Shown: positions 30,844 through 61,749, counted from the stretch's first letter. The stretch: DNA of 64,000 bases from a bacterium (GCA_030674455.1 JAUSGQ010000007.1:19947-83946), one strand, 5' to 3'. Notes: generated by a model from the sequence alone, not told the origin. Translations and numbers: made by a program.

Positions 30844-30943
30844 TGCCAATCTACAAATGGACTCCAATCTACAAATAACTACGAATAAGCAATGCTCACA
30901 TTTGTAGCTATTCGTAGTATTCGGATGATTCGTAGATTGGGAC
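30844..30943. repeat. ~100-bp composite palindromic repeat (CCAATCTACAAAT ... ATTCGTAGATTGG), family copy R1 of 6, REP/BIME-like
   Basis: It shares words with the copies at 42502, 47001, 48156, 49350 and 61654, and it fills the carA-carB spacer. Confidence 0.85.
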
Positions 30944-30955
30944 ATAATAAATATT

Positions 30956-32014
30956 CTAGATGCTGATAGAACGTATAAACTCATCAAATATCCATGCGGT
31001 GTCCGTTGGCCCCGGTGCTGCCTCGGGGTGGAACTGCACAGCTCGCCAGGCTTTTGATTTGTGCTTGATGCCCTCCACGCTTCCGTCATTCGCGTTGGTG
31101 AACCATACAGCCCAATCATGCGGAAGCGATTTTGCGTCAACAGCATACCCGTGATTTTGCGATGTTATGTAACAACGGCCTGTCTCCTGATCTACGCATG
31201 GTTGATTTTGTGAGCGATGACCGTATTTGAGCTTGTATGTACTTCCGCCCGCGGCGAGCGCCAAGAGTTGAGTTCCGAGGCAGATGCCTAATATCGGCTT
31301 TGGCATAAGCATTGCACGCTTGAGATTTTCAATTGTATTGCCGCACATGTTTGGGTCGCCGGGCCCGTTGGAAATCACAAGCGCATCATGCGGCTCATTC
31401 GCAAAATCATAGTCCCATGGAACGCGTACGATCGTAATTTCAGGGCGCACGAGTGAGCGCAAAATATTTTCCTTCATCCCGCAGTCAACTATAACGATGG
31501 TAGTGGCCCCATTGCCGTACGTTTCCGGCTTTTTTATACTGACCCGCGCAACGAGATTCTCCTTATTCGGGTCAACAAAAGCCGATGCAGTGAGGCGTCG
31601 CCTCACTGCATTCACAGGCCTGGCGTCTATTATGCCGAGCATCACACCGTGTTCGCGCAATTTTTTTGCAAGCGCACGCGTATCTACGCCCGTAATTGCC
31701 GGAACACCGGAGCGCTTAAGCCACTCCGATAATGACTCGCACGCCAACTGGTGCGAATAATTCTCGGAATAGTCCGCCACGATTAGGCCAGCGGCCTGGA
31801 TTTTATCGGATTCAAAATATTTACGTTCTGGCACGCCATAATTTCCCACCAGAGGATAGCTCAAGACAATGATTTGTCCTGCATATGAGGGGTCCGATAA
31901 GCTCTCTACATATCCGACCATCCCCGTGTTAAAAACCACCTCGCCGGATGCCGATACGGGTGCGCCAAAGCTTTTACCCTCAAATACTGTCCCGTCTTTA
32001 AGAGTTAATTTCAT
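30956..32014 (-). CDS. carA: carbamoyl-phosphate synthase small subunit (glutamine amidotransferase)
   Basis: GATase class I motifs, including ICLGHQ-like GICLGTQ. Confidence 0.9.
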   Translation of the reverse strand: MKLTLKDGTVFEGKSFGAPVSASGEVVFNTGMVGYVESLSDPSYAGQIIVLSYPLVGNYGVPERKYFESDKIQAAGLIVADYSENYSHQLACESLSEWLKRSGVPAITGVDTRALAKKLREHGVMLGIIDARPVNAVRRRLTASAFVDPNKENLVARVSIKKPETYGNGATTIVIVDCGMKENILRSLVRPEITIVRVPWDYDFANEPHDALVISNGPGDPNMCGNTIENLKRAMLMPKPILGICLGTQLLALAAGGSTYKLKYGHRSQNQPCVDQETGRCYITSQNHGYAVDAKSLPHDWAVWFTNANDGSVEGIKHKSKAWRAVQFHPEAAPGPTDTAWIFDEFIRSISI

Positions 32015-32238
32015 AATGTATGAGACCCTACTTCGCTTCCTCCTACGTCAAGACTACGGAGGACAAGAAAGCTACGAAGGGTTGCTCTCTCATGAAAATG
32101 CCCGCTTACTGCGGGCAGAAATGGAGAGCAAAAAAATACACCCGGGCGGGTGTTTCTCTTATTAATTCCTTGCGAGTTCATTAAAGTTGAATTATATGCC
32201 CATATTTGCCGGTGTCAAATTTTAACCTGGCTGTGGAT

Positions 32239-33561: not shown

Positions 33562-33574
33562 TTATGAGTGTTGT

Positions 33575-34069
33575 ATGAGTAAAGAAAACGGAGAAGGCGG
33601 GAATGTCGTCAATTTGAAACGGCGATTGGAACAACTAAAGGCGACGCGTAGCCTAAGACCTACAGCAGACGCTCAACAGCAGGAAACCATCCCACCGCTA
33701 ACGGACAAAGAAGTGTTACAAAAAGCTAGAGAGATTGTGGAAAGATTCCCGGGCATTGCCTCGTTGGCTAAAGACTTAGATAGTCAAGAGATCGCCCTTG
33801 GCCGGATACCGAGTGAAAGAAATGTTGAACTGGCACGTGCTGGTTATGAGGAAGAATTGGGACGAGCCCGAGAGAGAGCCGAGGTGAATGTCCGAAACAA
33901 ACCTGAATCCCCATTACAGAATAGACTTCAGGAGGATGTCAGAATCATGTTCGCTGGATATGAATGGACGCAACCGGTGTTTTTCAATACCAAATATGCC
34001 GCCTATGCCCGCGCCTATCTCGAAAAATTTGATCCAAAATTCAAACTGCCTGATTTTACCGACATATGA
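33575..34069 (+). CDS. hypothetical protein
   Basis: 164 aa. Its stop overlaps the start of the next ORF (ATGA). Confidence 0.4.
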   Translation: MSKENGEGGNVVNLKRRLEQLKATRSLRPTADAQQQETIPPLTDKEVLQKAREIVERFPGIASLAKDLDSQEIALGRIPSERNVELARAGYEEELGRARERAEVNVRNKPESPLQNRLQEDVRIMFAGYEWTQPVFFNTKYAAYARAYLEKFDPKFKLPDFTDI

Positions 34070-34461: not shown

Positions 34462-34488
34462 GATGAATTGAGGTGTTATAATTTCGAA

Positions 34489-35507: not shown

Positions 35508-35580
35508 GGGCCGGTAGTTCAGTGGTAGAACGTCTCATTTGCAATGAGAAGGTCGGGGGTTCGATTCCTCTCCGGTCCAC
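35508..35580 (+). tRNA. tRNA-Ala (anticodon UGC)
   Basis: Acceptor stem GGGCCGG/CCGGTCC with the G3:U70 Ala identity pair, anticodon loop CTCATTTGCAATGAG (TGC) and T-loop GGTTCGATTCC. Confidence 0.9.
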
Positions 35581-35650
35581 CCCGTTAGAGATTAGTAACG
35601 TCTTTATTACTGATTCGTCGAATAACTCTTTTATATATCTAAAGGTATAA

Positions 35651-36376
35651 ATGATCTCTAACGGGGTCCACAAAATGATTAGTGCAAATCTTAGGAATAT
35701 AGAAGGCGAAATGAGTAGCGCGGGTAGGAAAGTTACCTTGGTTGCTGTAACAAAAAGCGTGGGGATAGACGAAACAAACGAAATCATTAAAGCGGGAGTG
35801 CGCGCAATCGGAGAAAATAGAGTCGAGGATTTTGAAAAGAAAATCACGCAATTGCTTCCGGTAGAAAAGCATTTCATCGGGCAAATTCAATCGCGAAAGA
35901 TTAAACGAATTGTAGAACTATTTGATGTTATTCAATCTGTCGATTCAATCGAGCACTTAGAGAAAATCGAGAGGGAGGCAGTCTCTCAAAACAAAAAAAT
36001 AAAAATTCTTCTACAGTTCAATATTTCACGGGAGGCGCAAAGAGGCGGCTTCGAACCAAGTGATGTCGTACAAATTATTAAAGCTATTGGAAGGTATTCA
36101 CTATCGGTTAATTCGCGCGAATTAACCGATAAGAGCAATAGCATTTTGTCGATTCAACATGTGGAAATCATCGGAGTGATGGGAATGGCTAGCGATACTA
36201 CAGATACTGAAGTGGTGAGAGAGCAGTTTCGCTTGCTAAAAGATATTAGAGACCAATTGCAGTCGAAATATCCTAAAATCAAAGAACTGTCGATGGGCAT
36301 GTCTAGTGACTGCCAAATCGCCCTGGAGGAAGGCGCCACAATACTGCGAATCGGCAGGGCACTATTCAGCAATTAG
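35651..36376 (+). CDS. yggS: YggS-family pyridoxal phosphate homeostasis protein
   Basis: VTKSV, GENRVQ-like GENRVE, HFIGQIQSRK and SMGMSSD motifs. Confidence 0.85.
   Translation: MISNGVHKMISANLRNIEGEMSSAGRKVTLVAVTKSVGIDETNEIIKAGVRAIGENRVEDFEKKITQLLPVEKHFIGQIQSRKIKRIVELFDVIQSVDSIEHLEKIEREAVSQNKKIKILLQFNISREAQRGGFEPSDVVQIIKAIGRYSLSVNSRELTDKSNSILSIQHVEIIGVMGMASDTTDTEVVREQFRLLKDIRDQLQSKYPKIKELSMGMSSDCQIALEEGATILRIGRALFSN
36105..36128. repeat. perfect 24-bp palindrome CGGTTAATTCGC|GCGAATTAACCG in frame in yggS (encodes SVNSRELTDK)
   Basis: Same TTCGCGCGAA core and the same reading frame (NSREL) as the uvrC copy. Confidence 0.8.
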
Positions 36377-41890: not shown

Positions 41891-42496
41891 CTAACGTCTG
41901 GAATCGAGAGCGCTTTTTATTGTGTCGGGGTCGGCGTATTCAATTTCGCTACCGGTGGAAAGGCCTCTGCCGAGCGATGTAACTCTCAATGAATGGCCCT
42001 TTGCAAGGGATTCCAATTCCTCTTTAAGCCGGATGGATGTGGCATCACCTTCGGGATTGGCAGGAAATGCCAAAATTATTTCTTTTAATCCGCCTTTGGC
42101 CAATTTTGGAACATACGCAATTAGCTCGCGCAGTCGCAAACCACTAAGTACTTCCGATGCGAGCGACACCGTTCCACCGAATACGAAATATTTTCCACGA
42201 TACGTTCCACTTCGCTCAATGGCCAAAAGGTCAGTATCGTTCGCTACAACGGCAAGCAGAGTGCTGTCGCGCTCCAGGTTTTCGCATATCGAGCATATCG
42301 CACGCTTACCCGAGTGATATCGCATGCACTCCAAACACTGGTGAACGGCGGCGCTTAGACTTTCAATAGCCGCCGCGAGTTCAGCGCGCGTCCTTTGCGA
42401 ACTACGCAGAAGAAACTGAACAAACCTGCCGGCTTGCCGCGGGCCGATGCCGGGGAATTTCTCGAATATTGATGACAGTTTTTCAATGGAATCCAT
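41891..42496 (-). CDS. recR: recombination protein RecR
   Basis: HhH motif (KFPGIGPRQA), C4 zinc finger, Toprim domain and a C-terminal Walker B-like segment. Confidence 0.9.
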   Translation of the reverse strand: MDSIEKLSSIFEKFPGIGPRQAGRFVQFLLRSSQRTRAELAAAIESLSAAVHQCLECMRYHSGKRAICSICENLERDSTLLAVVANDTDLLAIERSGTYRGKYFVFGGTVSLASEVLSGLRLRELIAYVPKLAKGGLKEIILAFPANPEGDATSIRLKEELESLAKGHSLRVTSLGRGLSTGSEIEYADPDTIKSALDSRR

Positions 42497-42501
42497 ATTG
42501 T

Positions 42502-42597
42502 CCCAATCTACGAATCATCCGAATACTACAAATGACTGCAAATACTCGCATTTCTTATTCGTAGACATTTGTAGATTGGAATCCATTTGTAGATTGG
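42502..42597. repeat. composite GTAG-palindromic repeat, copy R2, filling the recR-dnaB spacer
   Basis: It has the words CCAATCTACGAAT and ATTTGTAGATTGG, the latter twice. Confidence 0.85.
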
Positions 42598-42601
42598 CAC
42601 T

Positions 42602-43990
42602 TCAAAACGGTGAATCTTCTTCACCGACTTTTGCCTCGGTCGCAAAATCTCCAAAATCGCTCTTTTCTATCGGAAGAAAAGTGGTTTTGGCCTCATCAAA
42701 CCGCAGGTCGATTTTACCCACGGGGCCGTTGCGGTGCTTCTCTATCATGATTTCTGCAATGCCCGGCCTGTCTGAATTCTCGTTCATTTTGTCGTCGCGG
42801 TGTATGAACATGACGACATCCGCGTCTTGCTCCAGAGCGCCCGAGTCGCGAAGGTCGGAGAGGCGCGGTTTTCCTCGCCGACTCTCCACCGCACGCGAAA
42901 GCTGGGAAAGCGCAAGAACCGGCACGTCTAGCTCGCGCGCCATTGCTTTAAGTGAGCGGGATATTTCCGTTATCTGCTGGACCATTGAATCTCCTCCGCG
43001 CGCGTGAAGGGGAGTTATAAGCTGAAGATAATCAATTACGACGAGACCAAGACCTTTTTCCATCTTTAGCCGGCGGGCGACAGAACGCATCGAGAGAACC
43101 GTACTGCTTGGCCTGTCATCAATGTATATAGGCGCTTCGGATAGAACACTGAGTCCCGCCTGCAGCCGCTCGTATTCCGCGTCTTTTGAAATCTTGCCGG
43201 TGCGCAAGCGCCACGCATCAACTCCCGCCTGAGCCGCGAGCATTCTGTCTACGAGCTGTTGGGAACTCATTTCCAAAGAGAAGATGCCGACAGCCGTTCC
43301 ATGCTTAGTCGCTGTCTGGCGAGCTATGTCCAAAGCAAGCGCAGTCTTTCCCATTGAAGGTCTCGCCGCGAGAATGATGAGGTCTGATTTTTGGAAGCCA
43401 GCGAGAATATTATCTAGCTGGGGAAAACCGGTGGGAACGCCTCGTATCGTGCCGCCGTGTTTCTGAAGATGCTCCAACCGTTCCCACGCTTCCGACAACT
43501 CGTCTTTGAGCGCCGAAAAAGATTGCAGCATCGGCGAATTAGCAACTCTAAAAACTGCGGCCTGCGCCTCATCTAAGATTTCTTCTATTTCGCGGTCTTC
43601 CTGAAAGCCAAGCTCTCCAATCGTTGAGGCGGCATTTATGAGTGAGCGAAGAATAAATTTCGTCTGTACAACGTGCGCGTAATGCTGGGCGCTCCCGGGG
43701 CTCGCCGCGGCTCCCGTTAATTCCGAAAGGTACGCCGCACCGCCTATGTCCGCGAGTTGCTTTCGTTCTTTGAGCTTGCCGGAAACTGTAACTACATCAA
43801 TGGGTTCGCCTTTAGAGTAAAGAGCCATCATTGATTCATAGATGACGCGATGCTTACCGGCATAAAACGAGTCCGCGATTACAATGTCCGCGACCTCGTA
43901 CATCGCGTTCTGGTTCATCATGAGCGCCCCGAGGAGTGCGCGCTCTGTTTCAACATCTTGCGGCGGAACTCTCGGAGTATTCACTGACAT
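42602..43990 (-). CDS. dnaB: replicative DNA helicase
   Basis: DnaB N-terminal domain, Walker A GARPSMGKT and RecA-like motifs. Confidence 0.9.
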   Translation of the reverse strand: MSVNTPRVPPQDVETERALLGALMMNQNAMYEVADIVIADSFYAGKHRVIYESMMALYSKGEPIDVVTVSGKLKERKQLADIGGAAYLSELTGAAASPGSAQHYAHVVQTKFILRSLINAASTIGELGFQEDREIEEILDEAQAAVFRVANSPMLQSFSALKDELSEAWERLEHLQKHGGTIRGVPTGFPQLDNILAGFQKSDLIILAARPSMGKTALALDIARQTATKHGTAVGIFSLEMSSQQLVDRMLAAQAGVDAWRLRTGKISKDAEYERLQAGLSVLSEAPIYIDDRPSSTVLSMRSVARRLKMEKGLGLVVIDYLQLITPLHARGGDSMVQQITEISRSLKAMARELDVPVLALSQLSRAVESRRGKPRLSDLRDSGALEQDADVVMFIHRDDKMNENSDRPGIAEIMIEKHRNGPVGKIDLRFDEAKTTFLPIEKSDFGDFATEAKVGEEDSPF

Positions 43991-44109: not shown

Positions 44110-44197
44110 AAAGCCATGCATTTTTGACGGTGCGGGTTTATCTTCCCTTCTACAGGTGCCTATCATGACCGATAGGCCGTCAAAAATGCATGGCTTT
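44110..44197. other. long structured element with 21-bp inverted repeat AAAGCCATGCATTTTTGACGG / CCGTCAAAAATGCATGGCTTT and an inner hairpin CCTATC..GATAGG, inside a 457-nt noncoding region
   Basis: The inverted repeat is visible on inspection. This is the largest intergenic region in the window. Confidence 0.5.
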
Positions 44198-44456
44198 TGA
44201 AAGTTCGTGTTGCCATAAGGTTGACGTTATGGTATTGTTCTGTTATTGTCACGGTGTAAGCGAGTCACAGCAAAACATAATCCCTAAAATAGTCAAATAA
44301 ATCAACCCAAAAGCAACTTTATGCCCGGTAGGACAATTTCGAATCGCATTGTATGAACAATCAACATCACAGTAAGCAAATATTGACGGGTCGGTTTTTA
44401 CATATGTACACAGGTACAACTACTGCAGAAATTATTCGAAATTGTACTAACCGGGT

Positions 44457-45476: not shown

Positions 45477-45537
45477 GATTTTGGGGTCCGACCGATATAA
45501 CGCTAGCAAATGCGGTCGCATTTGCTAGCGTTATAGA

Positions 45538-46998
45538 TTGCATATCACTGCTGGGCAATGTTCTGGAAATGGTATAATTGTATATATGGCAGACACGCCC
45601 GTGCATGGTCCTCCTTCGGACGTAAAGAAGTTTTTTAACGCGATCAAATCCTTTGACTGGGATGAGTGGAACGATTATTTCTATTTTTGGGGAATTTCGC
45701 GATTTCTATATCACACAATAATTTTCTTCGGCTTATTGGGCATTCTGTCGCTACAAGTCCCAAATCTATTTCTTTTTGCAACAGGGTGGCTAATTGGAAC
45801 CGCACCCATTTGGCTTCCGATAGCCATGCTAATCGGATTCTACGAGATATGGTTCTGGTATGTCCGCTCGAATTTTATTTTTCATAAAAAACCGGTGCTG
45901 TTGGAGATGAGGATACCGCGCGAAATCACCAAATCTCCCCGAGCGATGGAAACAGCGCTCACGAATTTATGGGTGCCTCAAGGAGTCACGACGCTATACC
46001 AGCGAATGTTTAAAGGAATGGTTCTACCATGGTATTCGCTGGAAATGGCCTCCTTGGGGGGTGAAATTCACTTCTATATTTGGGTCTGGCAGGACTGGCG
46101 AAAGATAGTCGAGGCAACTCTCTATGCGGAATATCCTGAAATCGAACTGCATGAGGCGGAAGATTATGCACAAAAGTTTGTTTATAACCCAGAGACGCAG
46201 ACGTGCTACGGATGCGGGTGGCGGTTAGAACCGTATAATCCAAAAGTCAGATATATAGACGCGTACGTGATGAAAACATATATCGACTTGGAGCTCGATA
46301 AAGACCCAAAAGAGGAATTTAAAATTGACCCGCTTGCAGAAGTTCTGGAGGTTATGGGTTCCATGAACAAAGACCAGCAGATGTGGATACAGTTTCTGAT
46401 AACTCCGGAATTTAAATGGGGCAAACTTAGTCCAAAAGAAAGCGATTGGTCGGCTAGGGTTAAATGGGAAGTGGAGAAAATCCGCGCGACATCGCTCACG
46501 TTCTCTAAAGAGGCAGAGGCATTGCTCACAGAACGCCAGAGAATGCTCGCCCGCCCGAGGCCGACGTGGGTTCAGGAACATCAACTGGAGACCATGCAGA
46601 GAAATCTCGGCAAACATCCCTTTGCAGTGGTCCCGCGCGGGATTTTTATATCGCCGCACAAAGATTTCGGCGTGCGATTTTGGGACATGCGATGGATATG
46701 GCGGCCATTTGCAAATCCGCAGTACATGACACAAATGCGTAATCGCTGGTATCACACGGTAATGGATTATCCGTGGCAGGACTTTCACGATATGCGCTGG
46801 GAAATGCTTACCAAACGCTTTATTGATGCCTACAGGCGCAGGTCGGGCTTTTACAGCCCATGGGATTTTCCTCCGAATGTTATGACAACTGAATTACTCG
46901 CGACGTTCTATCATCCGCCAAGCAGTTCAATCAAAGTGCCGGGCCTAGTCCGCATTGAATCAAAGAAGTCTGCGCCACCGCCGAATCTTCCACAATAA
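45538..46998 (+). CDS. large Trp-rich membrane-anchored hypothetical protein
   Basis: 486 aa with N-terminal TM helices. It has no recognisable family, and the start is uncertain (Met 45586 is possible). Confidence 0.4.
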   Translation: MHITAGQCSGNGIIVYMADTPVHGPPSDVKKFFNAIKSFDWDEWNDYFYFWGISRFLYHTIIFFGLLGILSLQVPNLFLFATGWLIGTAPIWLPIAMLIGFYEIWFWYVRSNFIFHKKPVLLEMRIPREITKSPRAMETALTNLWVPQGVTTLYQRMFKGMVLPWYSLEMASLGGEIHFYIWVWQDWRKIVEATLYAEYPEIELHEAEDYAQKFVYNPETQTCYGCGWRLEPYNPKVRYIDAYVMKTYIDLELDKDPKEEFKIDPLAEVLEVMGSMNKDQQMWIQFLITPEFKWGKLSPKESDWSARVKWEVEKIRATSLTFSKEAEALLTERQRMLARPRPTWVQEHQLETMQRNLGKHPFAVVPRGIFISPHKDFGVRFWDMRWIWRPFANPQYMTQMRNRWYHTVMDYPWQDFHDMRWEMLTKRFIDAYRRRSGFYSPWDFPPNVMTTELLATFYHPPSSSIKVPGLVRIESKKSAPPPNLPQ

Positions 46999-47000
46999 GT

Positions 47001-47114
47001 CCCAATCTGCAAATATATTCCAATCAACGAATGAATCCCAATCTACAAATGGCTACGAATGGACAATGCTTACATTTGTAGTTATTCGTAGTATTCGTAT
47101 CATTTGTAGATTGG
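47001..47114. repeat. composite GTAG-palindromic repeat, copy R3 (ends 7 nt before the mltG start)
   Basis: Same family. Confidence 0.85.
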
Positions 47115-47120
47115 AACTCT

Positions 47121-48152
47121 ATGGCTTCCTTTGAAAAATTCCTTGAACGCGCATTCGACGCATATGACCGCGTTTTGAATGATTTGTCGAATCGATGGCG
47201 GGAACACGCGAATCGCAGAACGATAATTACGCTCCTATCCGTCGGCACATTGGCGATAGTGTTATACCTGAACGTCATACGACCGCCGGACAACTTTCCG
47301 CTCGATACGCTCGTGACTATAGAAGATGGCGCGACGGTAAGCGATGCCGCCTCGGTGCTTGAGTCAAATCACGTTGTGCGTTCCGGAACGGCCTTGCGAT
47401 ATCTCATTATCCTGCTTGGTGACCAGAAAAATGTGCATGCAGGAGATTATCTTTTTAAAGAACCGCGCGATTTATTCAGCGTAGCGCGCGCTATTGTAAT
47501 CGGGGCATATGGACTGGAACCTCTGCGCATTCGCATTCCCGAGGGCGCGACGACAAAAGAAATGGCGCGCATTTTAGAAGCGCGGCTTCTGCGCTTCAAC
47601 GGCGATACATTTATCGCTGAAGCACAACCGCTGGAGGGATTCCTTTTTCCCGATACCTATTATTTTCTTCCGAACGCAAGCGAAGAACTTGTGATTCGAA
47701 CAATGCGTCAGACATTTGACACGCGGACATCGGAAATTGACGCACAAATCAAATCATTCGGAAAACCACTGAATGACGTCATTATAATGGCATCTCTTTT
47801 AGAGCGTGAGGCGCGCACATCAAAAGACAGAAGAATGATTGCCGGAGTTTTGTGGAATCGGTTGAACAAAGGCATGTTGCTCCAGGTTGACGCCGCTTTT
47901 CGCTACACCATCGGAAAGGGAACATACCAGCTGACGACAGAAGACCTCGCGAGCGATTCCCCCTACAACACGTATCGGAACCCAGGGTTGCCGCCGACAC
48001 CCATCGGTAGCCCAAGTCTTGATTCCATCCTGGCGGCCGTTACTCCCCTCAAGCATAACTATTTATATTACCTTGCCGATAGAAGCGGAGTTACTCACTA
48101 CAGCAAGACATACGCCGAACATTTGCGATATAAGCGAAAATATATAGACTAA
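47121..48152 (+). CDS. mltG: endolytic murein transglycosylase MltG (YceG family)
   Basis: N-terminal TM anchor and LEGFLFPDTY, ASLLEREA and NTYRNPGLPPTPI motifs. Confidence 0.9.
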   Translation: MASFEKFLERAFDAYDRVLNDLSNRWREHANRRTIITLLSVGTLAIVLYLNVIRPPDNFPLDTLVTIEDGATVSDAASVLESNHVVRSGTALRYLIILLGDQKNVHAGDYLFKEPRDLFSVARAIVIGAYGLEPLRIRIPEGATTKEMARILEARLLRFNGDTFIAEAQPLEGFLFPDTYYFLPNASEELVIRTMRQTFDTRTSEIDAQIKSFGKPLNDVIIMASLLEREARTSKDRRMIAGVLWNRLNKGMLLQVDAAFRYTIGKGTYQLTTEDLASDSPYNTYRNPGLPPTPIGSPSLDSILAAVTPLKHNYLYYLADRSGVTHYSKTYAEHLRYKRKYID

Positions 48153-48155
48153 AGT

Positions 48156-48266
48156 GCCAATCTGCGAATGATACGAATACTACGAATGGCTACAAATGTG
48201 AGTGTTGATTATTCGTAGTTATTTGTAGATTGGAATATATTCGTAGATTGGTACTTGTTAGATTGG
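48156..48266. repeat. composite GTAG-palindromic repeat, copy R4
   Basis: Same family. Confidence 0.85.
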
Positions 48267-48273
48267 AACATGT

Positions 48274-49392
48274 ATGTCAAAAACAGTTTTCGTTGGTTTG
48301 TCGGGTGGCGTCGATTCCGCCGTTTCGGCTGCGCTGCTTAAAGAGCAAGGCTATAACGTCGCTGGCGTATTCATAAAAATCTGGCAACCTGAATTTATAG
48401 AATGCACGTGGGCGAAAGACCGTCTGGACGCGATGCGCGTTTGCGTTTCGCTCGGAATCCCGTTCCAGGAAATAGACCTTTCATCTGATTACAAACGCAC
48501 GGTTGTGGACGACATGATCTCCGCATATTCGCGCGGCATCACTCCAAATCCGGATGTCCTGTGCAATAGACACATAAAATTCGGCAGTTTTATGAACTAT
48601 GCGCGCAAAGAGGGTGCGGATTATATTGCGACGGGACATTACGCCCGTGTCGCCTTAGGCGACCGCAGATTTACGCAGAAAGAACCCAAAAACGTATACA
48701 AATTATTAAGAGGGTCAGATAACAATAAAGACCAGTCATACTTCTTGTACTTATTGAAACAGGATGACCTTGTGCATACGCTATTCCCCGTGGGAAATCT
48801 TTTAAAGTCAGAGGTAAGGAAGCTTGCAGCTAAGTTTTCTCTTCCTGTTGCAGAAAAATCCGATAGCCAAGGATTGTGCTTTGTCGGCGATGTGACGATG
48901 AAGGATTTTCTCTCGAGATATATGAAACTCGACGAAGGAAAAGTCATAGATACAAATGGCACATGCATAGGCAGTCACGAAGGAGCTGCGCTTTATACGA
49001 TAGGACAACGACACGGATTCACAACCGAGCGCCTTGCGGGTGACAGAACCCCGTACTATGTCGTCTCTGTTAATATTCCCGCGAATACAATAACTGTTTC
49101 CACAAGGCGCGACGACGCAACGCAAAAAGATATACGCATCGACTCAATGCATTGGATATCGGGCGCTCCGGAAATGCCGTTGCGCGCACAAACACAGGCG
49201 AGATATAGAGAAAAACCGAGCGAAGCAACAATTTCTGTAGAGGGTGGAGGTGTGAGCGTTGCTTTTGATGAGCCGCAAATTGCCGCGGCCGGGCAATCGA
49301 TCGTTGTGTATAACGACGACACATGTTTAGGCGGAGGCACCATAGAGTACCAATCTACGAATGAATTCCAATCTACAAATAACTACGAATAA
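48274..49392 (+). CDS. mnmA: tRNA-specific 2-thiouridylase MnmA. The last ~14 codons (YQSTNEFQSTNNYE) are encoded by repeat copy R5.
   Basis: PP-loop SGGVDS and MnmA domains. The ORF reads into the repeat before reaching a stop. Confidence 0.9.
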   Translation: MSKTVFVGLSGGVDSAVSAALLKEQGYNVAGVFIKIWQPEFIECTWAKDRLDAMRVCVSLGIPFQEIDLSSDYKRTVVDDMISAYSRGITPNPDVLCNRHIKFGSFMNYARKEGADYIATGHYARVALGDRRFTQKEPKNVYKLLRGSDNNKDQSYFLYLLKQDDLVHTLFPVGNLLKSEVRKLAAKFSLPVAEKSDSQGLCFVGDVTMKDFLSRYMKLDEGKVIDTNGTCIGSHEGAALYTIGQRHGFTTERLAGDRTPYYVVSVNIPANTITVSTRRDDATQKDIRIDSMHWISGAPEMPLRAQTQARYREKPSEATISVEGGGVSVAFDEPQIAAAGQSIVVYNDDTCLGGGTIEYQSTNEFQSTNNYE

Positions 49393-49444
49393 TCATTTCT
49401 CCACATTTGTAGCCATTCGTAGTATTCGTGCATTCGTAGATTGG
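49350..49444. repeat. composite GTAG-palindromic repeat, copy R5
   Basis: Same family. Confidence 0.85.
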
Positions 49445-49459
49445 GACTATACTATTTAA

Positions 49460-50341
49460 ATGCAAACATATGCACGTGGTGCGTCATCAGTAGCTCACGG
49501 TTATGGTGCGCAAAATATTGGGAGTGTATTGATTACAAAAGCAGACGGCGAGCAAGAAATGTTCGTCCCTACCAAGCTGGATAACTCTCTAGCACGCGTA
49601 GGCGTTGGGCCAGACATGCGCAAGCGTGTCATTGACCATGTCATACGCGAACTGAAACCCGGCATGACTACTGAAGAAATTTATCGGCACGCTTTCGATA
49701 TCCTGCGTAGGGAAGAAAGCGCGCCCATGGCGGCGCGCTATTCGATAAAGCGGGCGGTTTTCGCCCTTGGTCCTTCGGGATTTCCTTTTGAGCAATTCCT
49801 GGCGGAGATACTGCGCGCGCACGGATGGACATGCCGCACTGGAGCAGCACTCAATGGTCACTGTGCTCCACACGAAGTAGATGTGTTAGCAGAAAAGAGC
49901 GGAAGAAAAATCGGAATCGAAGCAAAGTTCCACAATGATGCCGGGGGAAAGACCGATATTAAAGACGCACTTTATGTGCATGCCCGCTATGAGGATTTGA
50001 AGAAAACGACGGAGGAATCTTCCCACGTTGATGAGGGGTGGCTCGTCACTAATACTACTTTTACACACAACGCAATCCGCTATGCGCAATGCTCCGGCCT
50101 GACGCTCCTCGGATGGGATTATCCGAACGGCCGCGGACTCCTGCCTATGATAGAAGAAGCAAAAGTCCATCCTTTGACCTGCCTCACGACTCTTACAGAG
50201 GGTGAAAAACGGCAATTGCTCGACAACAAAATTGTTCTGTGCAAGAGCGTGCAATCGCGGCACCTGCTGGATGAATACGGCATCCGGCCAGGACGAATAC
50301 CTCAAGTAATGGAGGAAGCCCAGCGCCTATGCGGGATATGA
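49460..50341 (+). CDS. ATP-cone domain + Mrr-like restriction-endonuclease (PD-(D/E)XK) domain protein
   Basis: N-terminal ATP-cone-like segment (VPTKLDNSLARVGV...) and a C-terminal Mrr_cat-like segment (FEQFLAEILRAHGW...VDVLAEK...IEAKF...LVTNTTFT). The real start may be an internal Met. Confidence 0.5.
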   Translation: MQTYARGASSVAHGYGAQNIGSVLITKADGEQEMFVPTKLDNSLARVGVGPDMRKRVIDHVIRELKPGMTTEEIYRHAFDILRREESAPMAARYSIKRAVFALGPSGFPFEQFLAEILRAHGWTCRTGAALNGHCAPHEVDVLAEKSGRKIGIEAKFHNDAGGKTDIKDALYVHARYEDLKKTTEESSHVDEGWLVTNTTFTHNAIRYAQCSGLTLLGWDYPNGRGLLPMIEEAKVHPLTCLTTLTEGEKRQLLDNKIVLCKSVQSRHLLDEYGIRPGRIPQVMEEAQRLCGI

Positions 50342-51844: not shown

Positions 51845-51977
51845 AAACACAAATCCTAAATCCTAAGCTCTAAACAAATCTTTAGCACCAAAACCCGAAA
51901 CGAAACATTTTTGAATTTGAAAATTGTGATTTTGATTTTGTTTAGGATTTAGATATTAGAGTTTAGGATTTCTTCCA

Positions 51978-52712: not shown

Positions 52713-52713
52713 T

Positions 52714-52742
52714 CTTCTACCAAGGTCTTACCTTGGTAGAAG
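52714..52742. repeat. 27-bp GTAG-type palindrome CTTCTACCAAGGT-CTT-ACCTTGGTAGAAG (REP-like, left flank of RAYT). It begins 2 nt after the ung stop, and its right arm encodes the RAYT C-terminal LLPR.
   Basis: The palindrome is visible. Inverted-centre copies lie at 53439..53465 and 53235..53258. Confidence 0.85.
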
Positions 52743-53420
52743 TTCGTTATCATCTTGCCGAGCATATATTTTTGCCTCCTCGATAAGTTGGTCAATCGTT
52801 TGCGAAGCATCGAGTATTTCCAACACCGGCTCTTTGTTTATGATAGAGGACTCCGGACGCGTTCCTGAGTAGTCGAGAAAACTGGAGTACTGATACTCCG
52901 ATAAAAATTTCCGCAAATTCTTTTCGTTCTGTATCGAACATTGTTTCCATTTCGGCTCTATTAGCTCTGCAGGGTTTGCATGAATATAACTAACTACTCT
53001 ATTTAGATTCTGATCCGACTCTATTCGTTTCGCCTTAAAGGTGCCTTGAAACAATGCTCCGTTACGTTCGTATTTGATATTGAAGTACATCGTGTAGCCC
53101 GTTCCGAGCTGTCGCATAAAGGATGTGATGCCTCCATAATTATGTTCACGTAAAAACAGGTGATGATGGTTTGGCATCAGGCAGTACGCGCCAATGTCCA
53201 CGAGTTTTTCTTTTCTCTCAACTGCCGCCACGAGTTCTACCAAGGTCTTACCTTGGTTGATGTTGCTGATATGTATTGGTTCGCGACTGTTACATGCATA
53301 TAGAAGCATCACAAATCGCTCGTAGTCTTCTGGATTTGTGAAAACGACCCGCTTATCAACGCCGCGATTGTAGCAGTGATACCATTCGTTCGGTGCGAAG
53401 GAAATTGTTCGCTGTCCCAT
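52728..53420 (-). mobile_element. IS200-like HUH tyrosine transposase (REP-associated tyrosine transposase, RAYT-like)
   Basis: WYHCYNRG (YHVxxRG-like), HUH motif CLMPNHHHLFL and catalytic-Tyr region YIHANPAE. The track ORF starts at TTG 53510, but the likely start is Met 53420. Confidence 0.75.
53235..53258. repeat. internal copy of the RAYT-flank palindrome (TTCTACCAAGGTCTTACCTTGGTTGA) in frame inside the RAYT gene (encodes INQGKTLVEL)
   Basis: Same word, with arms degenerate by 2 nt. Confidence 0.7.
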
Positions 53421-53438
53421 ATCGATAATAATAACATG

Positions 53439-53465
53439 TTCTACCAAGGTAAGACCTTGGTAGAG
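53439..53465. repeat. right-flank palindrome TTCTACCAAGGT-AAG-ACCTTGGTAGAG (centre inverted relative to the left copy)
   Basis: The REP pair is in inverted orientation around the RAYT gene. Confidence 0.85.
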
Positions 53466-58395: not shown

Positions 58396-58443
58396 CCGGG
58401 TCGAGGAAGTAAAATACCCGTAGTTGCAGTTGCATCACGGAAG

Positions 58444-58493
58444 AAGGCGGCCAATGGTACGAACCGTACTGAATTGTGGTCGCCTTTTTTCTT
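58444..58493 (+). terminator. rho-independent terminator (GGCGGCCA...TGGTCGCC plus T6)
   Basis: Stem with a nested hairpin and a T-run. Confidence 0.65.
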
Positions 58494-58562
58494 ACATAAT
58501 TTTTACACTACTTACTACTAACTACCGACTACTAACTATTTTCTGCGTTATAATGTTAGCTA

Positions 58563-59726: not shown

Positions 59727-59866
59727 AAGAGTATCTTGTATACTGTATGCTGTATTCAGTATGATAGAATCATCGTTATACACTTTAGTTGCGAGAGGGA
59801 GTTGTGTATTTATGAGTTATACTAAATACTAATACGGAATACTGTATACCGTATACTAATTTTGAT

Positions 59867-61249
59867 ATGGCTAAAGACTATTTCCAGGACATTCTGCAAC
59901 CGGATGATGGTAAACCAGCAAGTTCCTTTGTTACTGGCAAGAATCTGCGCGACGCAGGTCAGGAATCACAAGGTGCAGGCGAGCGCTCAATAAGAAACAT
60001 CACGGTCACACGCGCTTCGCGCCCTCGTGGAATGTCCAGCGATGTGAGAGATTCTGTCTCCGAGCCGCAGCCGCCATACGAAAGGTCTAGTTTGGGAGGC
60101 CAGCGGCGCGTTTGGATTTGGGTAGTTGCGGCGATTTCGGTCGTCGTTCTGGGTGTACTTGCGATTTTTGCATTCCGCAGCACGGCGATAACGGTAACGC
60201 AGAGGTCACGTCCGATAATCTTCGACCAGTCCGTGCATTTCGTTGCTAACGCGACCGCAGATGACCCTACTGCACTTACATACACAGTCGTCACCAACGA
60301 ACTTGAAGACACTGCCGTAGTTCCGTCAAACGGAACAGAGCGCGTGGAAGAAAAGGCAAGCGGAACGATACAAGTTTTCAATTCATATTCCGCAGCTCCC
60401 GTACGTCTTATAAAAAACACGAGATTCTCGACACCTGACGGTTTGATTTTCAGAGTTCCCGCAACTGTCGTGATTCCGGGAAAGAAGGGGACTACGCCCG
60501 GCTCCGTGGAGGTTACCGTTTCTGCCGATCAGGCGGGCGAGAAGTACAAAGTCGGTCCGATTGATAAATTTACTCTGCCCGGCCTAAAGACAAGTCCGGA
60601 AATGTACAAAGGAGTATACGGGCGTTCCACTGCGGCATTTACCGGAGGCTTCATCGGCGACAGGCCAGCCATGGAGGCAGGCGCGCTTGATGCTGCAAAA
60701 GCCGAGGTTCGTGGCCGCTTGGAAACTAAGGCGCGCGACGGCGCACGCGCACTCGGGAATGATACATCGACAGTCTTTCCGGATCTGATACGCATCACCT
60801 ACGAATCACTGCCGCCGACGGCAGAAGCTGGCGGAGGTTCTCGCATCCACGAAAAAGCCAGAGTTGAAATCCCTGTACTGCCTGCGCAAGCATTCGCGAA
60901 AACTGTCGTGGAGGGAGTCGGCGAGAATACGGAGGGCACAAGCTTTACGATTCAAGGCTTGGATAATCTGACCGCAAGAGGCGGTGCGACAATTTCTAAT
61001 GTAGCACTTGGCAAAGACGCGATTGATTTCACGCTCTCGGGCAATGCGGTACTCGTTTGGAATGTCGATTCTGCAGCACTCGCGGCGGCTCTCGCCGGAC
61101 GAGATGAAAGTGCATTTCAGGGCATAATAACTGGCTTTCCTAGCATTCAGGAAGCTCGCGCCAGAATCGAACCTTTTTGGAAGAGCACATTCCCTGCATC
61201 GGCTTCCGACATCAAAGTTGAGTTCGCGCCGCTTCAATCGTCGCAATAG
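59867..61249 (+). CDS. membrane-anchored hypothetical protein (single TM near residue 90, large extracytoplasmic domain)
   Basis: 460-aa ORF with one hydrophobic segment. Confidence 0.4.
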   Translation: MAKDYFQDILQPDDGKPASSFVTGKNLRDAGQESQGAGERSIRNITVTRASRPRGMSSDVRDSVSEPQPPYERSSLGGQRRVWIWVVAAISVVVLGVLAIFAFRSTAITVTQRSRPIIFDQSVHFVANATADDPTALTYTVVTNELEDTAVVPSNGTERVEEKASGTIQVFNSYSAAPVRLIKNTRFSTPDGLIFRVPATVVIPGKKGTTPGSVEVTVSADQAGEKYKVGPIDKFTLPGLKTSPEMYKGVYGRSTAAFTGGFIGDRPAMEAGALDAAKAEVRGRLETKARDGARALGNDTSTVFPDLIRITYESLPPTAEAGGGSRIHEKARVEIPVLPAQAFAKTVVEGVGENTEGTSFTIQGLDNLTARGGATISNVALGKDAIDFTLSGNAVLVWNVDSAALAAALAGRDESAFQGIITGFPSIQEARARIEPFWKSTFPASASDIKVEFAPLQSSQ

Positions 61250-61446
61250 TTTCTTCTCTCGATGCTTTTCCCGTCTTTCACTCCTCATAATGCGGCTTCG
61301 GGGTTGACTCGCCGGCAATTAACTGATATTGTCCCCTGCGCAGATATGTCCGTACACACGAATTACCGCAATCAATTTGTTGCAGTGATTTCGAGAGTAC
61401 TTCTGTCGGCCGGAATGTCATCGCGCTTTTCTTTCGTGTGATGAAT

Positions 61447-61653
61447 ATGGCCGAACAAGAATCTGTGGAAGGAGTTGTTGAGGAAGCTCTTCCGAATACG
61501 CTTTTTCGAGTGAGAATGCCGTCGGGAGAATTAGTAATCGCGTATCTGGCCGGCAAGATGCGCCTGCACAGGATAAAAGTCCTTGTGGGAGATAAGGTTT
61601 CCGTGCATCTCGACCCATACGGAGGTCGCGCGCGAATTATAAGGAGGGTTTAG
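61447..61653 (+). CDS. infA: translation initiation factor IF-1
   Basis: S1-like domain (GVVEEALPNTLFRVRM...). Confidence 0.9.
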   Translation: MAEQESVEGVVEEALPNTLFRVRMPSGELVIAYLAGKMRLHRIKVLVGDKVSVHLDPYGGRARIIRRV

Positions 61654-61749
61654 TTCCAATCTGCAAATGAATTCCAATCTACAAATAACTACAAATGAGA
61701 AAGCGGATATTCGTAGCCATTTGTAGTATTCGTATCATTCGTATATTGG
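61654..61749. repeat. composite GTAG-palindromic repeat, copy R6, between infA and rpmJ
   Basis: Same family. It starts immediately after the infA stop. Confidence 0.85.

What the first reader, a model, noticed from the sequence alone, without database searches (positions are those of the whole stretch)
30844..61749. Six copies of a ~100-bp composite GTAG palindrome that exactly fill intergenic spacers
Copies lie at 30844..30943, 42502..42597, 47001..47114, 48156..48266, 49350..49444 and 61654..61749. Each is built from the words CCAATCTAC(A/G)AAT and (A/T)ACTACGAAT on the left and their complements ATTCGTAG...ATTTGTAGATTGG on the right, forming a long imperfect hairpin. They start within 0-5 nt of the upstream stop (immediately after the infA stop, and 2 nt before the dnaB stop) and end 7-10 nt before the next start codon. 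They are present between co-directional genes, including inside the infA-rpmJ ribosomal cluster. Copy R5 supplies the last 14 codons and the stop of mnmA. This is REP/BIME- or MITE-like behaviour at very high local density, about one copy per 10 kb.
Basis: seen in the sequence. Interest (0 to 1): 0.75.

Follow-up and report, generated by a model that had tools for sequence, protein, structure and literature searches.

The report
ORF-less copies of a nuclease-carrying hairpin element
The six repeats are real and are gene-less copies of a roughly 95-base palindromic element found across Parcubacteria (tiny uncultured bacteria), whose full-length form carries a small nuclease gene in its loop; this looks like an undescribed kind of selfish DNA sitting between housekeeping genes.

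Summary
Six copies of a ~95-115-nt composite palindrome lie at the stated coordinates: 20 hits to the 13-mer against 0.49 expected, and none elsewhere in the window.

Each copy has conserved polarity and folds as a long imperfect hairpin (z -4 to -9). All six sit between a stop codon and the next start codon of co-directional housekeeping genes. One copy replaces the natural stop of mnmA.

The family is widespread. The 23-nt core occurs in at least 100 stretches, almost all from Parcubacteria/Patescibacteria MAGs, sometimes in every spacer of a ribosomal-protein operon.

In nine loci fetched around a hit to the core pattern or to one GxxExxY protein, and around nearly every one of 67 distinct homologues in metagenomes, the same arms enclose a ~125-aa GxxExxY / PDDEXK_3 nuclease gene. 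That gene exactly replaces the loop, and its start and stop codons are made from arm words. Full and short copies within one genome share lineage-specific arm variants.

Related genomes show filled and empty sites, inverted orientations, and unrelated palindromes in the same spacer.

The window copies are therefore MITE-like, ORF-less derivatives of a hairpin-flanked nuclease cassette. They are not REPs of the RAYT-like transposase at 52.7-53.4 kb, which has its own different REP. How they move is inferred, not shown. I found no description in Rfam or in the paper library searched.

The parts
30843..30943 (-). Copy R1, between carA (30956-32014, -) and carB (27539-30838, -). The strand given is the vestigial GxxExxY-sense strand, which here runs the same way as the host genes.
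   Evidence: RNA fold -44.9 kcal/mol (z -9.0) on the - strand, -36.0 on the + strand.
42500..42600 (+). Copy R2, between dnaB (42602-43990, -) and recR (41891-42496, -). The GxxExxY-sense strand is antisense to the host genes. In L104, L105, L143 and L146 this same spacer holds a full GxxExxY cassette.
   Evidence: The orthologous copy in L079 is the best match overall (92% identity, loop 92%).
46999..47117 (-). Copy R3, with three outer 18-nt units, between a 486-aa ORF (45538-46998, +) and mltG/YceG (47121-48152, +). It starts directly after the TAA stop.
   Evidence: In relatives this spacer holds an inverted copy or unrelated palindromes.
48154..48269 (+). Copy R4 (core 48154-48254 plus a degenerate third unit reaching 48269), between mltG and mnmA (48274-49392, +). 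The sense strand runs the same way as the host genes.
   Evidence: Fold -46.2 kcal/mol on the + strand against -26.9 on the - strand.
49347..49447 (-). Copy R5, which overlaps the 3' end of mnmA and supplies its last 14 residues (YQSTNEFQSTNNYE) and its TAA stop. It is followed 12-15 nt later by an Mrr-like gene (49460-50341, +). The site is empty in L064 and L087.
61653..61752 (-). Copy R6, between infA (61438-61653, +; the G of its TAG stop is the first base of the element) and rpmJ (61759-61872, +).

Best explanation
The six copies are non-autonomous, ORF-less members of a Parcubacteria-wide family of palindromic insertion cassettes.

The complete element is ~450 nt. It has two ~41-nt inverted arms built from 8-13-nt words (CCAATCTACRAAT, CTACRAAT), and these enclose a ~125-aa GxxExxY protein, a minimal PD-(D/E)XK nuclease (TIGR04256 / PF13366). 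The gene's ATG lies in the arm word CGAATGGCTACAAAT, and its stop is the TAG of a GTAG word. The cassette sits between the stop codon of one host gene and the start of the next, almost always in the same direction as both, so it is probably read from host transcripts.

The ~100-nt copies in the window keep both arms and a 12-17-nt remnant loop. They look like internal-deletion derivatives, as MITEs are of their parent elements.

Shown here: the shared architecture, the parent-derivative relationship, insertion polymorphism and turnover, the orientation bias of full copies, and hairpin potential.

Inferred: the GxxExxY nuclease, acting on the arm words or on the hairpin/cruciform they form, is what moves or copies the element. 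Also inferred: the stem matters as single-stranded RNA or DNA on the gene-sense strand, for instance by sequestering the nuclease start codon or by acting as a processing site like the stem of 23S rRNA intervening sequences.

For the host, the window copies are most likely tolerated selfish DNA. In one case a copy has rewritten the C-terminus of mnmA.
For: Family and distribution:
- The core pattern occurs in at least 100 stretches, nearly all in Patescibacteria/Parcubacteria MAGs.
- A profile search finds 120 non-overlapping elements in the window plus the 100 fetched loci, six of them the window's own.
- The canonical two-unit architecture holds in 54 of 63 high-scoring copies.

The parent element:
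- L061, L017, L019, L028 and L052 carry a gene exactly in place of the loop.
- That gene matches PF13366 at 7e-21 and TIGR04256 at 2.5e-20.
- Practically all of 67 distinct homologues in 80 metagenome loci are flanked by an ACNAAT word array upstream and an ATTNGTA array downstream.
- The N-termini of all 16 homologues read out begin M-x-T-N or carry that motif within the first ten residues, and most C-termini read R-I/V-x-R-I; both are the translation of arm words.
- 44 of the full copies run the same way as both neighbours; none runs against both.
- A full cassette lies in the dnaB-recR spacer of L104/L105, the same spacer as window copy R2.
- In the Nomurabacteria MAG, full and short copies share genome-specific arm variants.

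Mobility and turnover:
- Filled versus empty orthologous sites: L063 against L064/L087; the S8-L6 and S14-S8 spacers of L046/L080 against L083; L036 against L090; R5 against L064/L087.
- Orientation is inverted in the same spacer (L018 against the window; L079 against R3), and unrelated palindromes occupy that spacer in L087 and L060.
- Only in the closest relative are orthologous copies the best matches. In more distant relatives they rank 15-40 of 48.

Structure:
- The six copies fold with z -4 to -9.
- Across 59 copies the gene-sense strand folds better in 40 and worse in 9 (-33.2 against -27.8 kcal/mol, Wilcoxon p = 3e-7).
- The full L104 element folds with its arms paired around the ORF (z -7.6).
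- A short-read contig ends inside R4 and R5.
Against: - No transposition or nuclease activity has been shown. GxxExxY could be a passenger rather than the mobilising enzyme.
- No target-site duplication could be read from the filled/empty pairs.
- There is no GxxExxY gene in the 64-kb window, and the rest of this genome could not be examined.
- The copies are old: 78-88% identical within the window, mean 79% across the family. There has been no recent burst, so long-term retention could reflect a host function.
- The loci were fetched because they contain the element, so site-occupancy figures are biased upward.
- Short copies occur in both orientations (23 sense, 13 antisense). An RNA-level role tied to one strand therefore cannot apply to all of them.
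Confidence: 0.7

Rival explanations
1. The copies are REP/BIME-type elements belonging to a REP-RAYT system. The Y1 (HUH) transposase encoded in the window recognises the GTAG words and their hairpins and disperses them.
For: - GTAG/CTAC is the invariant core of every word.
- The window encodes a RAYT-like protein at 52728-53431(-): PF01797 at 3.9e-8 and NF047646 'REP-associated tyrosine transposase' at 1.9e-11.
- Homologues occur in five other loci that also hold elements.
Against: - The RAYT-like gene is flanked on both sides by a different 25-nt palindrome (TCTACCAAGGTnnnACCTTGGTAGA), with one more copy inside the gene. That palindrome occurs nowhere else in the window.
- Homologues in L065 and L028 are flanked on both sides by other simple CAAGGT-type hairpins, and L041 shows a similar repeat on its downstream side only. 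None is flanked by the composite element.
- The NF047646 score (44 bits) is below the curated cut-off of 80.
- The composite arms are found around GxxExxY genes in practically every case.
Confidence: 0.08
2. The elements are, or have become, host-useful RNA or DNA signals between cistrons. They might be hairpins that terminate, process or stabilise transcripts, as REP/BIME and Correia elements do. Alternatively they might be outward promoters: the terminal TAGATT would act as a -10 box for mRNAs with almost no leader.
For: - The hairpins are strong.
- The position is always stop-element-start, including every spacer of an S14-S8-L6-L18-S5 operon in L046 and the infA-rpmJ spacer here.
- Start codons lie 5-11 nt past GATTGG.
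- Most window genes lack a Shine-Dalgarno sequence (8 of 59 have one) and many carry a TGnTAnnnT motif 6-9 nt before the ATG, so leaderless transcription seems to be the rule.
- The terminal TAGATT lies at -14..-9 or -15..-10 for recR, mltG, carB and mnmA.
- The copies are old and retained.
Against: - TAnnnT is no better conserved at start-proximal ends than at stop-proximal ends (73% against 76%, p = 0.83). About 20% of start-proximal ends read CAGATT.
- The hexamer-to-ATG gap is mostly 9-11 nt, longer than the native 6-9 nt.
- Consensus promoter and terminator scans show no excess over shuffles, and there is no T-tract.
- The same genes do without the element in relatives.
- Both orientations occur.
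- This role would be secondary and does not explain the nuclease-bearing parent.
Confidence: 0.15
3. The word arrays are binding sites for a host DNA-binding protein (a nucleoid or partition-like protein, or a regulator), and the palindromy is incidental.
For: - The 8-13-nt words repeat with an 18-nt (8 + 10) spacing.
- The number of units varies (1-3).
- Word sequence is conserved across many lineages.
Against: - There is no association with any regulator gene.
- Sites are gained and lost between close relatives.
- The inner words double as the first and last codons of the GxxExxY gene.
- The arms of full and short copies vary together within a genome. That fits recognition by an element-encoded protein better than by a host factor.
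Confidence: 0.05
4. The copies are assembly or binning artefacts: duplicated or chimeric sequence.
For: The source is evidently a metagenome-assembled genome, and repeats do break short-read assemblies.
Against: - The six copies differ by 12-22% and have unique flanks in conserved gene order.
- Orthologous copies occur in independently assembled MAGs from other studies.
Confidence: 0.01

Closest known systems
MITEs of bacteria (e.g. Correia/CREE of Neisseria, RUP of Streptococcus pneumoniae, ERIC/IRU of enterobacteria); comparison from general knowledge
   Same: - Roughly 100-150-nt, ORF-less and palindromic.
- Many copies, in intergenic spacers inside operons, co-transcribed with neighbours.
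- Arms shared with a longer gene-bearing element.
- Insertion polymorphism between relatives.
- Can extend or alter neighbouring ORFs, as R5 does to mnmA.
   Different: - The parent does not encode a DDE transposase. It encodes a ~125-aa PD-(D/E)XK (GxxExxY) protein nested in the loop, with its start and stop codons inside the arms.
- No target-site duplication was found.
- The arms are arrays of repeated short words rather than a single terminal inverted repeat.
- The family spans a whole class-level lineage of CPR bacteria with 79% mean identity, rather than one species.
REP/BIME elements and their RAYT (TnpA-REP) transposases; definition from general knowledge
   Same: Extragenic imperfect palindromes with a conserved GTAG/CTAC motif, high copy number, location between convergent or co-directional genes, and the ability to form hairpins.
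   Different: - The unit is a ~95-nt composite of five or six GTAG words per arm pair, not a 20-40-nt GC-rich stem-loop.
- The only RAYT-like gene in the window is flanked by a different REP.
- The composite arms flank GxxExxY genes instead.
Intervening sequences (IVS) of 23S rRNA, e.g. the Coxiella burnetii IVS (PMC4990558)
   Same: [quoted passage not shown]
- It has tandem short repeats, variable in number, just upstream of the ORF start.
- ORF decay and ORF-less versions occur.
- It rides on host transcription.
- In L102 a 23S_rRNA_IVP-family gene sits two genes from a GxxExxY cassette and has its own inverted word arrays, so the design is the same.
   Different: - The elements here sit in spacers between protein-coding genes, not in an rRNA helix.
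- The ORF is a PD-(D/E)XK nuclease, not the four-helix-bundle S23p.
- RNase III excision is known for IVS and is untested here.
GxxExxY protein family (NCBIfam TIGR04256; Pfam PDDEXK_3, PF13366)
   Same: The gene in the full-length elements is a clear member. Steczkiewicz et al. 2012 (PMC3424549) list PDDEXK_3 with function 'Unknown' and 'multiple transfers'.
   Different: - I found no published link between this family and flanking inverted word arrays or ORF-less derivatives.
- Outside CPR, two plasmid-borne members are also flanked by repeats: a 10-bp inverted repeat in Treponema and a 21-nt direct repeat in a Fusobacteria isolate. The arms are unrelated in sequence.

Membership tests
REP/BIME (REP-RAYT system) | Unit is a short (about 20-40 nt) imperfect palindrome preceded by a conserved GTAG tetranucleotide | tested here: not met
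   GTAG is present in every word. However, the repeated unit is a ~95-115-nt composite palindrome of 8-13-nt AT-rich words with a 12-17-nt loop.
REP/BIME (REP-RAYT system) | A cognate RAYT (Y1/HUH transposase) gene flanked by inverted copies of the same REP | tested here: not met
   The RAYT-like gene at 52728-53431(-) is flanked by TCTACCAAGGTnnnACCTTGGTAGA, not by the composite element. Homologues in L065 and L028 (both sides) and L041 (downstream side only) have other hairpins.
REP/BIME (REP-RAYT system) | High genomic copy number in extragenic positions | tested here: inconclusive
   Six copies in 31 kb here, and tens of copies in related MAGs. The window's own genome could not be scanned.
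MITE (non-autonomous derivative of an autonomous element) | Short, no coding capacity, terminal inverted repeats | tested here: met
   Length 100-119 nt. All three frames are closed within each copy. The ~41-nt arms are inverted.
MITE (non-autonomous derivative of an autonomous element) | Ends shared with a longer, gene-bearing element in the same or related genomes | tested here: met
   The same arms enclose a GxxExxY gene in L061, L017, L019, L028, L052 and L104, and in ~67 metagenome genes. Full and short copies share genome-specific arm variants.
MITE (non-autonomous derivative of an autonomous element) | The parent encodes a transposase that acts on those ends | not testable with these tools
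   The parent encodes a PD-(D/E)XK nuclease-fold protein with an intact D...ExK motif. Its activity is unknown.
MITE (non-autonomous derivative of an autonomous element) | Target-site duplication flanking the insertion | tested here: inconclusive
   No consistent duplication appears in five filled/empty comparisons. The spacers are too diverged for base-exact junctions.
MITE (non-autonomous derivative of an autonomous element) | Presence/absence polymorphism at orthologous sites | tested here: met
   L063 against L064/L087; L046/L080 against L083; L036 against L090; window R5 against L064/L087.
23S rRNA intervening-sequence (IVS) type element | Terminal inverted repeats form a long stem enclosing a small ORF | tested here: met
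   This is met for the full-length relatives: the L104 RNA fold pairs the arms around the ORF (z -7.6). The window copies have lost the ORF.
23S rRNA intervening-sequence (IVS) type element | Inserted in a helix of an rRNA gene and excised by RNase III | tested here: not met
   All copies lie between protein-coding genes. RNase III cleavage cannot be tested here.
Any Rfam RNA family | Match to a curated covariance model at its gathering score | tested here: not met
   Only tRNA-Ala reaches threshold in the window, and nothing does in L061, L017 or L019. The only sub-threshold hit is a chance mir-1277 match at E = 3.3.
Guide-RNA arrays (CRISPR, TIGR) | Conserved repeats separated by variable spacers long enough to act as guides | tested here: not met
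   The variable stretches between words are 2 and 5 nt, and the loop is 12-17 nt. No array is present.

The most novel reading that the evidence does not exclude
GxxExxY proteins (TIGR04256 / PDDEXK_3), a widely annotated family of unknown function, would be the nucleases of an unrecognised class of mobile cassette.

In this reading, a small ORF wrapped in inverted arrays of short words inserts between a stop codon and the next start codon without a target duplication. It is expressed from host operon transcripts, and its own long stem keeps it harmless at the RNA level, as in 23S rRNA intervening sequences. It also sheds ORF-less MITE-like copies that come to occupy a large share of the spacers of streamlined CPR genomes.

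The 23S_rRNA_IVP cassettes and the other word-array palindromes in the window would be sister families built to the same plan.
Probability: 0.35. Interest if true: 0.8.

Novelty: new variant of a known kind. Interest (0 to 1): 0.62.

Why it matters
- CPR/Patescibacteria genomes are among the smallest and most streamlined known. Even so, this family, together with several others of similar design in the same window, occupies the few bases left between essential genes, including ribosomal-protein operons. That is a striking tolerance of selfish DNA, or a sign that it has been put to use.
- The link to GxxExxY suggests a testable function for a large 'unknown function' nuclease family, and a possible mobility mechanism that does not use a classical transposase.
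- In practice these repeats break short-read assemblies of CPR genomes and can add residues to annotated proteins, as in mnmA. Annotators should mask them.
- Elements of similar design in rRNA (the intervening sequences) have lacked an explanation for how they spread. These protein-gene-spacer relatives offer many more insertion events to study.

Tried and rejected
1. **Outward -10 promoter.** The terminal TAGATT sits where native TGnTAnnnT boxes sit. But TAnnnT is kept equally at stop-proximal ends (76%) and start-proximal ends (73%), and the spacing is about 2 nt longer than native. Consensus promoter and terminator scans show no excess.
2. **Central inversion ('flip-flop').** I tested this as the explanation for the two inner-word classes (A,C) and (G,T). 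The loops are no more similar in reverse complement, so it is rejected. The near-absence of Watson-Crick combinations at that mirrored position remains unexplained.
3. **Target-site duplication.** None could be read from five filled/empty comparisons.
4. **Coding mini-ORFs.** Short copies retain ATG-GCT-ACA-AAT...TAG, but lengths and sequences vary, so there is no evidence for a peptide.
5. **RNA families.** Rfam at gathering and permissive thresholds gave nothing.
6. **Phage carriage.** The core pattern has no hit in 2.9 million viral contigs.
7. **The window's own genome.** Only a 1168-nt contig bounded by R4 and R5 was found.
8. **The L063 comparison with the window.** It first looked like a filled/empty pair, but the downstream genes differ. 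L064 and L087 gave the clean comparison.
9. **Non-CPR hits.** The hits in a 'Deltaproteobacteria' and a 'Clostridiaceae' MAG have no palindromic partner. About 0.5 chance matches are expected, so these are chance.
10. **Consensus RNA structure.** RNAalifold chose an alternative register because the words repeat. Covariation between arms cannot separate a hairpin from protein recognition of inverted sites, so no covariance model was built.
11. **Known structures and defence or phage families for GxxExxY.** No PDB sequence match. There were only weak Cas4b-like PADLOC hits and a PHROG family of unknown function.


Full report

Yes. The 13-mer CCAATCTRCRAAT, with up to one mismatch, occurs 20 times against 0.49 expected from shuffles, and 19 of those hits lie in the six loci. 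CTACRAAT occurs 34 times against 3.9 expected. A profile built from the six cores finds exactly six elements in the 64 kb, all between 30.8 and 61.8 kb. The copies are 78-88% identical to each other and have unique flanks, so they are not duplicated assembly.

**2. Anatomy**

Once oriented, every copy has the same polar architecture:
- One arm is GTN-CCAATCTRCRAAT-N5-CCAATCTACAAAT-NN-CTACGAAT.
- A 12-17-nt variable loop follows.
- The other arm is ATTTGTAG-NN-ATTCGTAG-TATTCGKATS-ATTYGTAGATTGG-NAC.

The two arms are ~41-nt inverted copies of each other. The exception is the second unit, which reads CCAATCTAC in one arm and the complement of CGAATACTAC in the other. That asymmetry is kept in 54 of 63 high-scoring copies from many genomes. 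R3 and R4 carry one extra 18-nt outer unit.

All six copies fold as long imperfect hairpins, with z-scores of -4 to -9 against shuffles.

**3. Gene context in the window**

| Copy | Flanking genes | Host strand |
|---|---|---|
| R1 | carA - carB | minus |
| R2 | dnaB - recR | minus |
| R3 | a 486-aa ORF - mltG | plus |
| R4 | mltG - mnmA | plus |
| R5 | mnmA - an Mrr-like gene | plus |
| R6 | infA - rpmJ | plus |

- The upstream stop is 0-4 nt from the element for R2, R3, R4 and R6, and 12-15 nt for R1.
- For R5 the stop lies inside the element.
- The next ATG is 6-9 nt past GATTGG, except for R5, where it is 15 nt.
- The mnmA claim is correct. Orthologues end at ...CLGGGVIAH* or ...GGGIIRK*, whereas the window protein continues YQSTNEFQSTNNYE* into R5. 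The site downstream of mnmA is empty in L064 and L087.

**4. Distribution**

Nearly all are in Patescibacteria/Parcubacteria MAGs: Kaiser-, Zambryski-, Nomura-, Vogel-, Wolfe-, Campbell- and Taylorbacteria, plus unlabelled or probably mislabelled bins. Two hits in non-CPR bins have no palindromic partner and match the ~0.5 chance hits expected.

The profile finds 120 non-overlapping elements in the window plus the 100 fetched loci, six of them the window's own. Sequence variants track lineage. In L046 an element occupies every spacer of rpsN-rpsH-rplF-rplR-rpsE. Viral contigs have none, and Rfam has no matching family.

The window's genome is not among the loci. Its nearest relatives share 70-85% nucleotide identity in the flanking genes. 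The only public contig encoding the window's exact mnmA protein is 1168 nt long and ends inside R4 and R5, as expected if repeats break short-read assemblies.

**5. The parent element**

In L061, L017 and L019 the two arms are ~320-400 nt apart. The intervening DNA is an ORF on the strand opposite to my 'canonical' orientation. It matches PF13366 (PDDEXK_3) at 7e-21 and TIGR04256 (GxxExxY protein) at 2.5e-20. L028 and L052 have the same arrangement.

- The gene replaces the loop exactly.
- Its ATG lies in the arm word CGA-ATG-GCT-ACA-AAT.
- Its stop is the TAG of a GTAG word.

A database search returned 314 homologues. The source names attached to the best 120 are overwhelmingly Parcubacteria. 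In all 16 sequences I read out, the M-x-T-N motif lies at or within ten residues of the N-terminus, and most C-termini read R-I/V-x-R-I, which is the translation of arm words.

A metagenome scan gave 80 more loci. Practically every one of 67 distinct genes is preceded by an ACNAAT word array and followed by an ATTNGTA word array. Of these genes, 44 run the same way as both neighbours and none runs against both.

In L104 and L105 the full cassette lies in the dnaB-recR spacer, the same spacer that holds R2 in the window. In the Nomurabacteria MAG, the full copy and the short copies share genome-specific arm features that differ from the Kaiserbacteria-type arms of the window. These features are an AC/GT inter-word spacer, a symmetric second unit, and a TACAGATTAGTTGATTGGTAA end.

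The window has no GxxExxY gene. Its six copies are therefore non-autonomous forms.

**6. Evidence for gain, loss and turnover**

Filled and empty orthologous sites:
- L063 has an element where L064 and L087 have a 22-23-nt spacer.
- L046 and L080 have elements in the S8-L6 and S14-S8 spacers, where L083 has an 8-nt spacer and a different short sequence respectively.
- L036 is filled where L090 is empty.
- R5 is present where L064 and L087 are empty.

Orientation flips within one spacer. L018 is inverted relative to the window in dnaB-recR, and L079 is inverted relative to R3. The R3 spacer holds two unrelated word-array palindromes in L087 and L060.

Orthologous copies are each other's best match only in the closest relative: R2 to L079 at 92% with the loop at 92%, and R4 to L079 at 89%. 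In more distant relatives they rank 15-40 of 48. That pattern fits vertical inheritance over short distances and replacement over longer ones.

One caveat applies. The loci were fetched because they contain the element, so occupancy is overestimated.

I could not read a target-site duplication from any filled/empty pair. The elements abut or overlap the stop codon (for example TA|GTNCCAATC) and end a few bases before the ATG.

**7. Single-strand structure**

Across 59 short copies, the strand corresponding to the GxxExxY sense strand folds better as RNA in 40 and worse in 9. The means are -33.2 and -27.8 kcal/mol (Wilcoxon p = 3e-7), though the copies are not independent. The cause is that mismatches are G.U on that strand and A.C on the other.

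The full L104 element folds with its arms paired around the ORF and the start codon inside the stem (z -7.6).

Short copies occur in both orientations relative to host transcription: 23 sense and 13 antisense among 63, and 2 sense and 4 antisense in the window.

One oddity remains unexplained. At the mirrored R/Y position of the innermost words the combinations are A/C in 30 copies, G/T in 16, A/T in 2 and G/C in none. Watson-Crick pairing is therefore almost absent, and inversion of the centre does not explain it.

**8. Rivals considered**

*(a) REP-RAYT.* The window does encode a RAYT-like Y1 transposase at 52728-53431(-). It matches PF01797 at 3.9e-8 and NF047646 at 44 bits, below the curated cut-off of 80. 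However, it is flanked by its own 25-nt REP, TCTACCAAGGTnnnACCTTGGTAGA, with a third copy in frame inside the gene. Homologues elsewhere carry other simple hairpins. The composite element is therefore not that gene's REP.

*(b) Host signal.* Most window genes lack a Shine-Dalgarno sequence, and many have a TGnTAnnnT motif 6-9 nt before the ATG, so transcripts without a leader seem usual. The element's terminal TAGATT falls near that position. Against this, the hexamer is no better conserved at start-proximal ends than at stop-proximal ends (73% against 76%), and the spacing runs about 2 nt long. Consensus promoter and terminator scans show no excess. A secondary role in mRNA processing or stability is not excluded.

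*(c) Host-protein binding arrays and (d) assembly artefact* have little support.

**9. Comparison with known systems**

The copies behave like bacterial MITEs such as Correia, RUP and ERIC. The parent, however, carries a small PD-(D/E)XK nuclease rather than a transposase. The arms are arrays of words rather than a single repeat. No target duplication is seen.

In design, the full element most resembles the intervening sequences of 23S rRNA. The Coxiella IVS is a 428-nt selfish element with a 28-bp terminal stem around a small ORF. It has variable tandem heptamers before the start codon and is excised by RNase III (PMC4990558). In L102 a 23S_rRNA_IVP-family gene sits two genes from a GxxExxY cassette and has its own inverted word arrays.

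The paper library holds nothing on GxxExxY beyond database listings. PDDEXK_3 is listed with function 'Unknown' in PMC3424549. I found nothing on palindromic repeats or MITEs in CPR genomes.

**10. Verdict**

The MITE-like interpretation is supported and can be stated more sharply. REP/BIME membership is not supported.

The most likely account, at about 0.7 confidence, is that these are ORF-less derivatives of a hairpin-flanked GxxExxY nuclease cassette that is widespread in Parcubacteria. That the nuclease itself moves them is an inference, at roughly 0.35-0.4.

This is a new variant of a known kind of element. It is of moderate to high interest for people working on mobile DNA and CPR genomes.

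Noticed in passing
window 52716-53464 (gene 52728-53431, - strand): A RAYT-like Y1/HUH transposase: PF01797 at 3.9e-8, and NF047646 'REP-associated tyrosine transposase' at 44 bits, below the cut-off of 80. It is flanked by a 25-nt palindrome, TCTACCAAGGTnnnACCTTGGTAGA, at 53440-53464 and 52716-52741. A third copy lies in frame inside the gene at 53236-53260. Homologues in L065 and L028 are flanked on both sides by different CAAGGT-type hairpins, and L041 has a similar repeat on its downstream side.
   Followed up: partly
window 61871-62008, 62428-62553, 63033-63131: In the infA-rpmJ-rpsM-rpsK-rpsD cluster, every spacer holds a different word-array palindrome: CACGAAATCCGAAA words, AAGTATCAAGTATCA words with 40-nt arms, and ACCCAGCACCTTT/AAAGGTGCTGGGT. 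The last core also appears in a ~370-nt insert in the S8-L6 spacer of L032.
   Followed up: no
window 51851-51971; 1546-1581 and 2615-2650; 45496-45535; 44110-44197; 44324-44454; 35579-35667: Further intergenic palindromes. These include AAATCCTAAATCCTAA words, two copies of the perfect 36-bp palindrome AACTACTTGCTTATTCGC|GCGAATAAGCAAGTAGTT, and a hairpin just after tRNA-Ala. The genome's spacers are generally rich in such elements.
   Followed up: no
window-wide, upstream of gene starts: Only 8 of 59 genes have a Shine-Dalgarno-like motif. Many have an extended -10-like motif (TGnTAnnnT, e.g. TGTTATAAT, TGGTACAAT, GTGATAGAAT) ending 6-9 nt before the start codon. This suggests that leaderless mRNAs, and a promoter for nearly every gene, are the norm in this organism.
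   Followed up: partly
L102 9150-9556: A 23S_rRNA_IVP (PF05635) gene inserted between T4SS-like genes. It is flanked by inverted arrays of AGCTTTTAGTT / AACTAAAAGCT words, so it has the same cassette design as the GxxExxY element but a different ORF.
   Followed up: no
L046 2825-2936; L096 356-467 and 7837-7948; L053 3256-3329 (right half only); L004 1436-1498 (right half only): Some copies carry a ~32-nt GC-rich hairpin (CCGTCTACAGGTGCCGACC...GGTCGGCC) nested in the loop, which looks like a second small element inserted into the first. L076 3258-3367 carries a different GC-rich hairpin (GCCCGCCTGCGCCGAGGCTTCGGCGGGCAGGC) nested inside its right arm.
   Followed up: no
alignment A2, columns 41/65 and 13/93 (all short copies, including the window's): The mirrored purine/pyrimidine positions of the inner words are A/C in 30 copies, G/T in 16, A/T in 2 and G/C in none. 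A mismatch or wobble is kept, and Watson-Crick pairing is almost never seen. This is unexplained.
   Followed up: partly
L186 1080-1700 (Treponema saccharophilum pTS1); L187 1080-1680 (Fusobacteria bacterium ZRK30 plasmid): GxxExxY genes outside CPR are also flanked by repeats. In Treponema it is a 10-bp inverted repeat, CACGGATTCG/CGAATCCGTG. In the Fusobacteria plasmid it is a 21-nt direct repeat, AGATTTAATCCGTGTACCTAT.
   Followed up: no
L116, L111, L126, L152, L171-L173, L181 (downstream of GxxExxY genes): Extra half-arms and tandem short copies pile up next to full cassettes. This suggests repeated insertion into, or decay of, earlier elements at the same site.
   Followed up: no
L046 2311-2571; L104 3975-4235: Small stand-alone GIY-YIG nuclease ORFs (~86 aa) lie between housekeeping genes. 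They may be another family of small inserted ORFs in these genomes.
   Followed up: no
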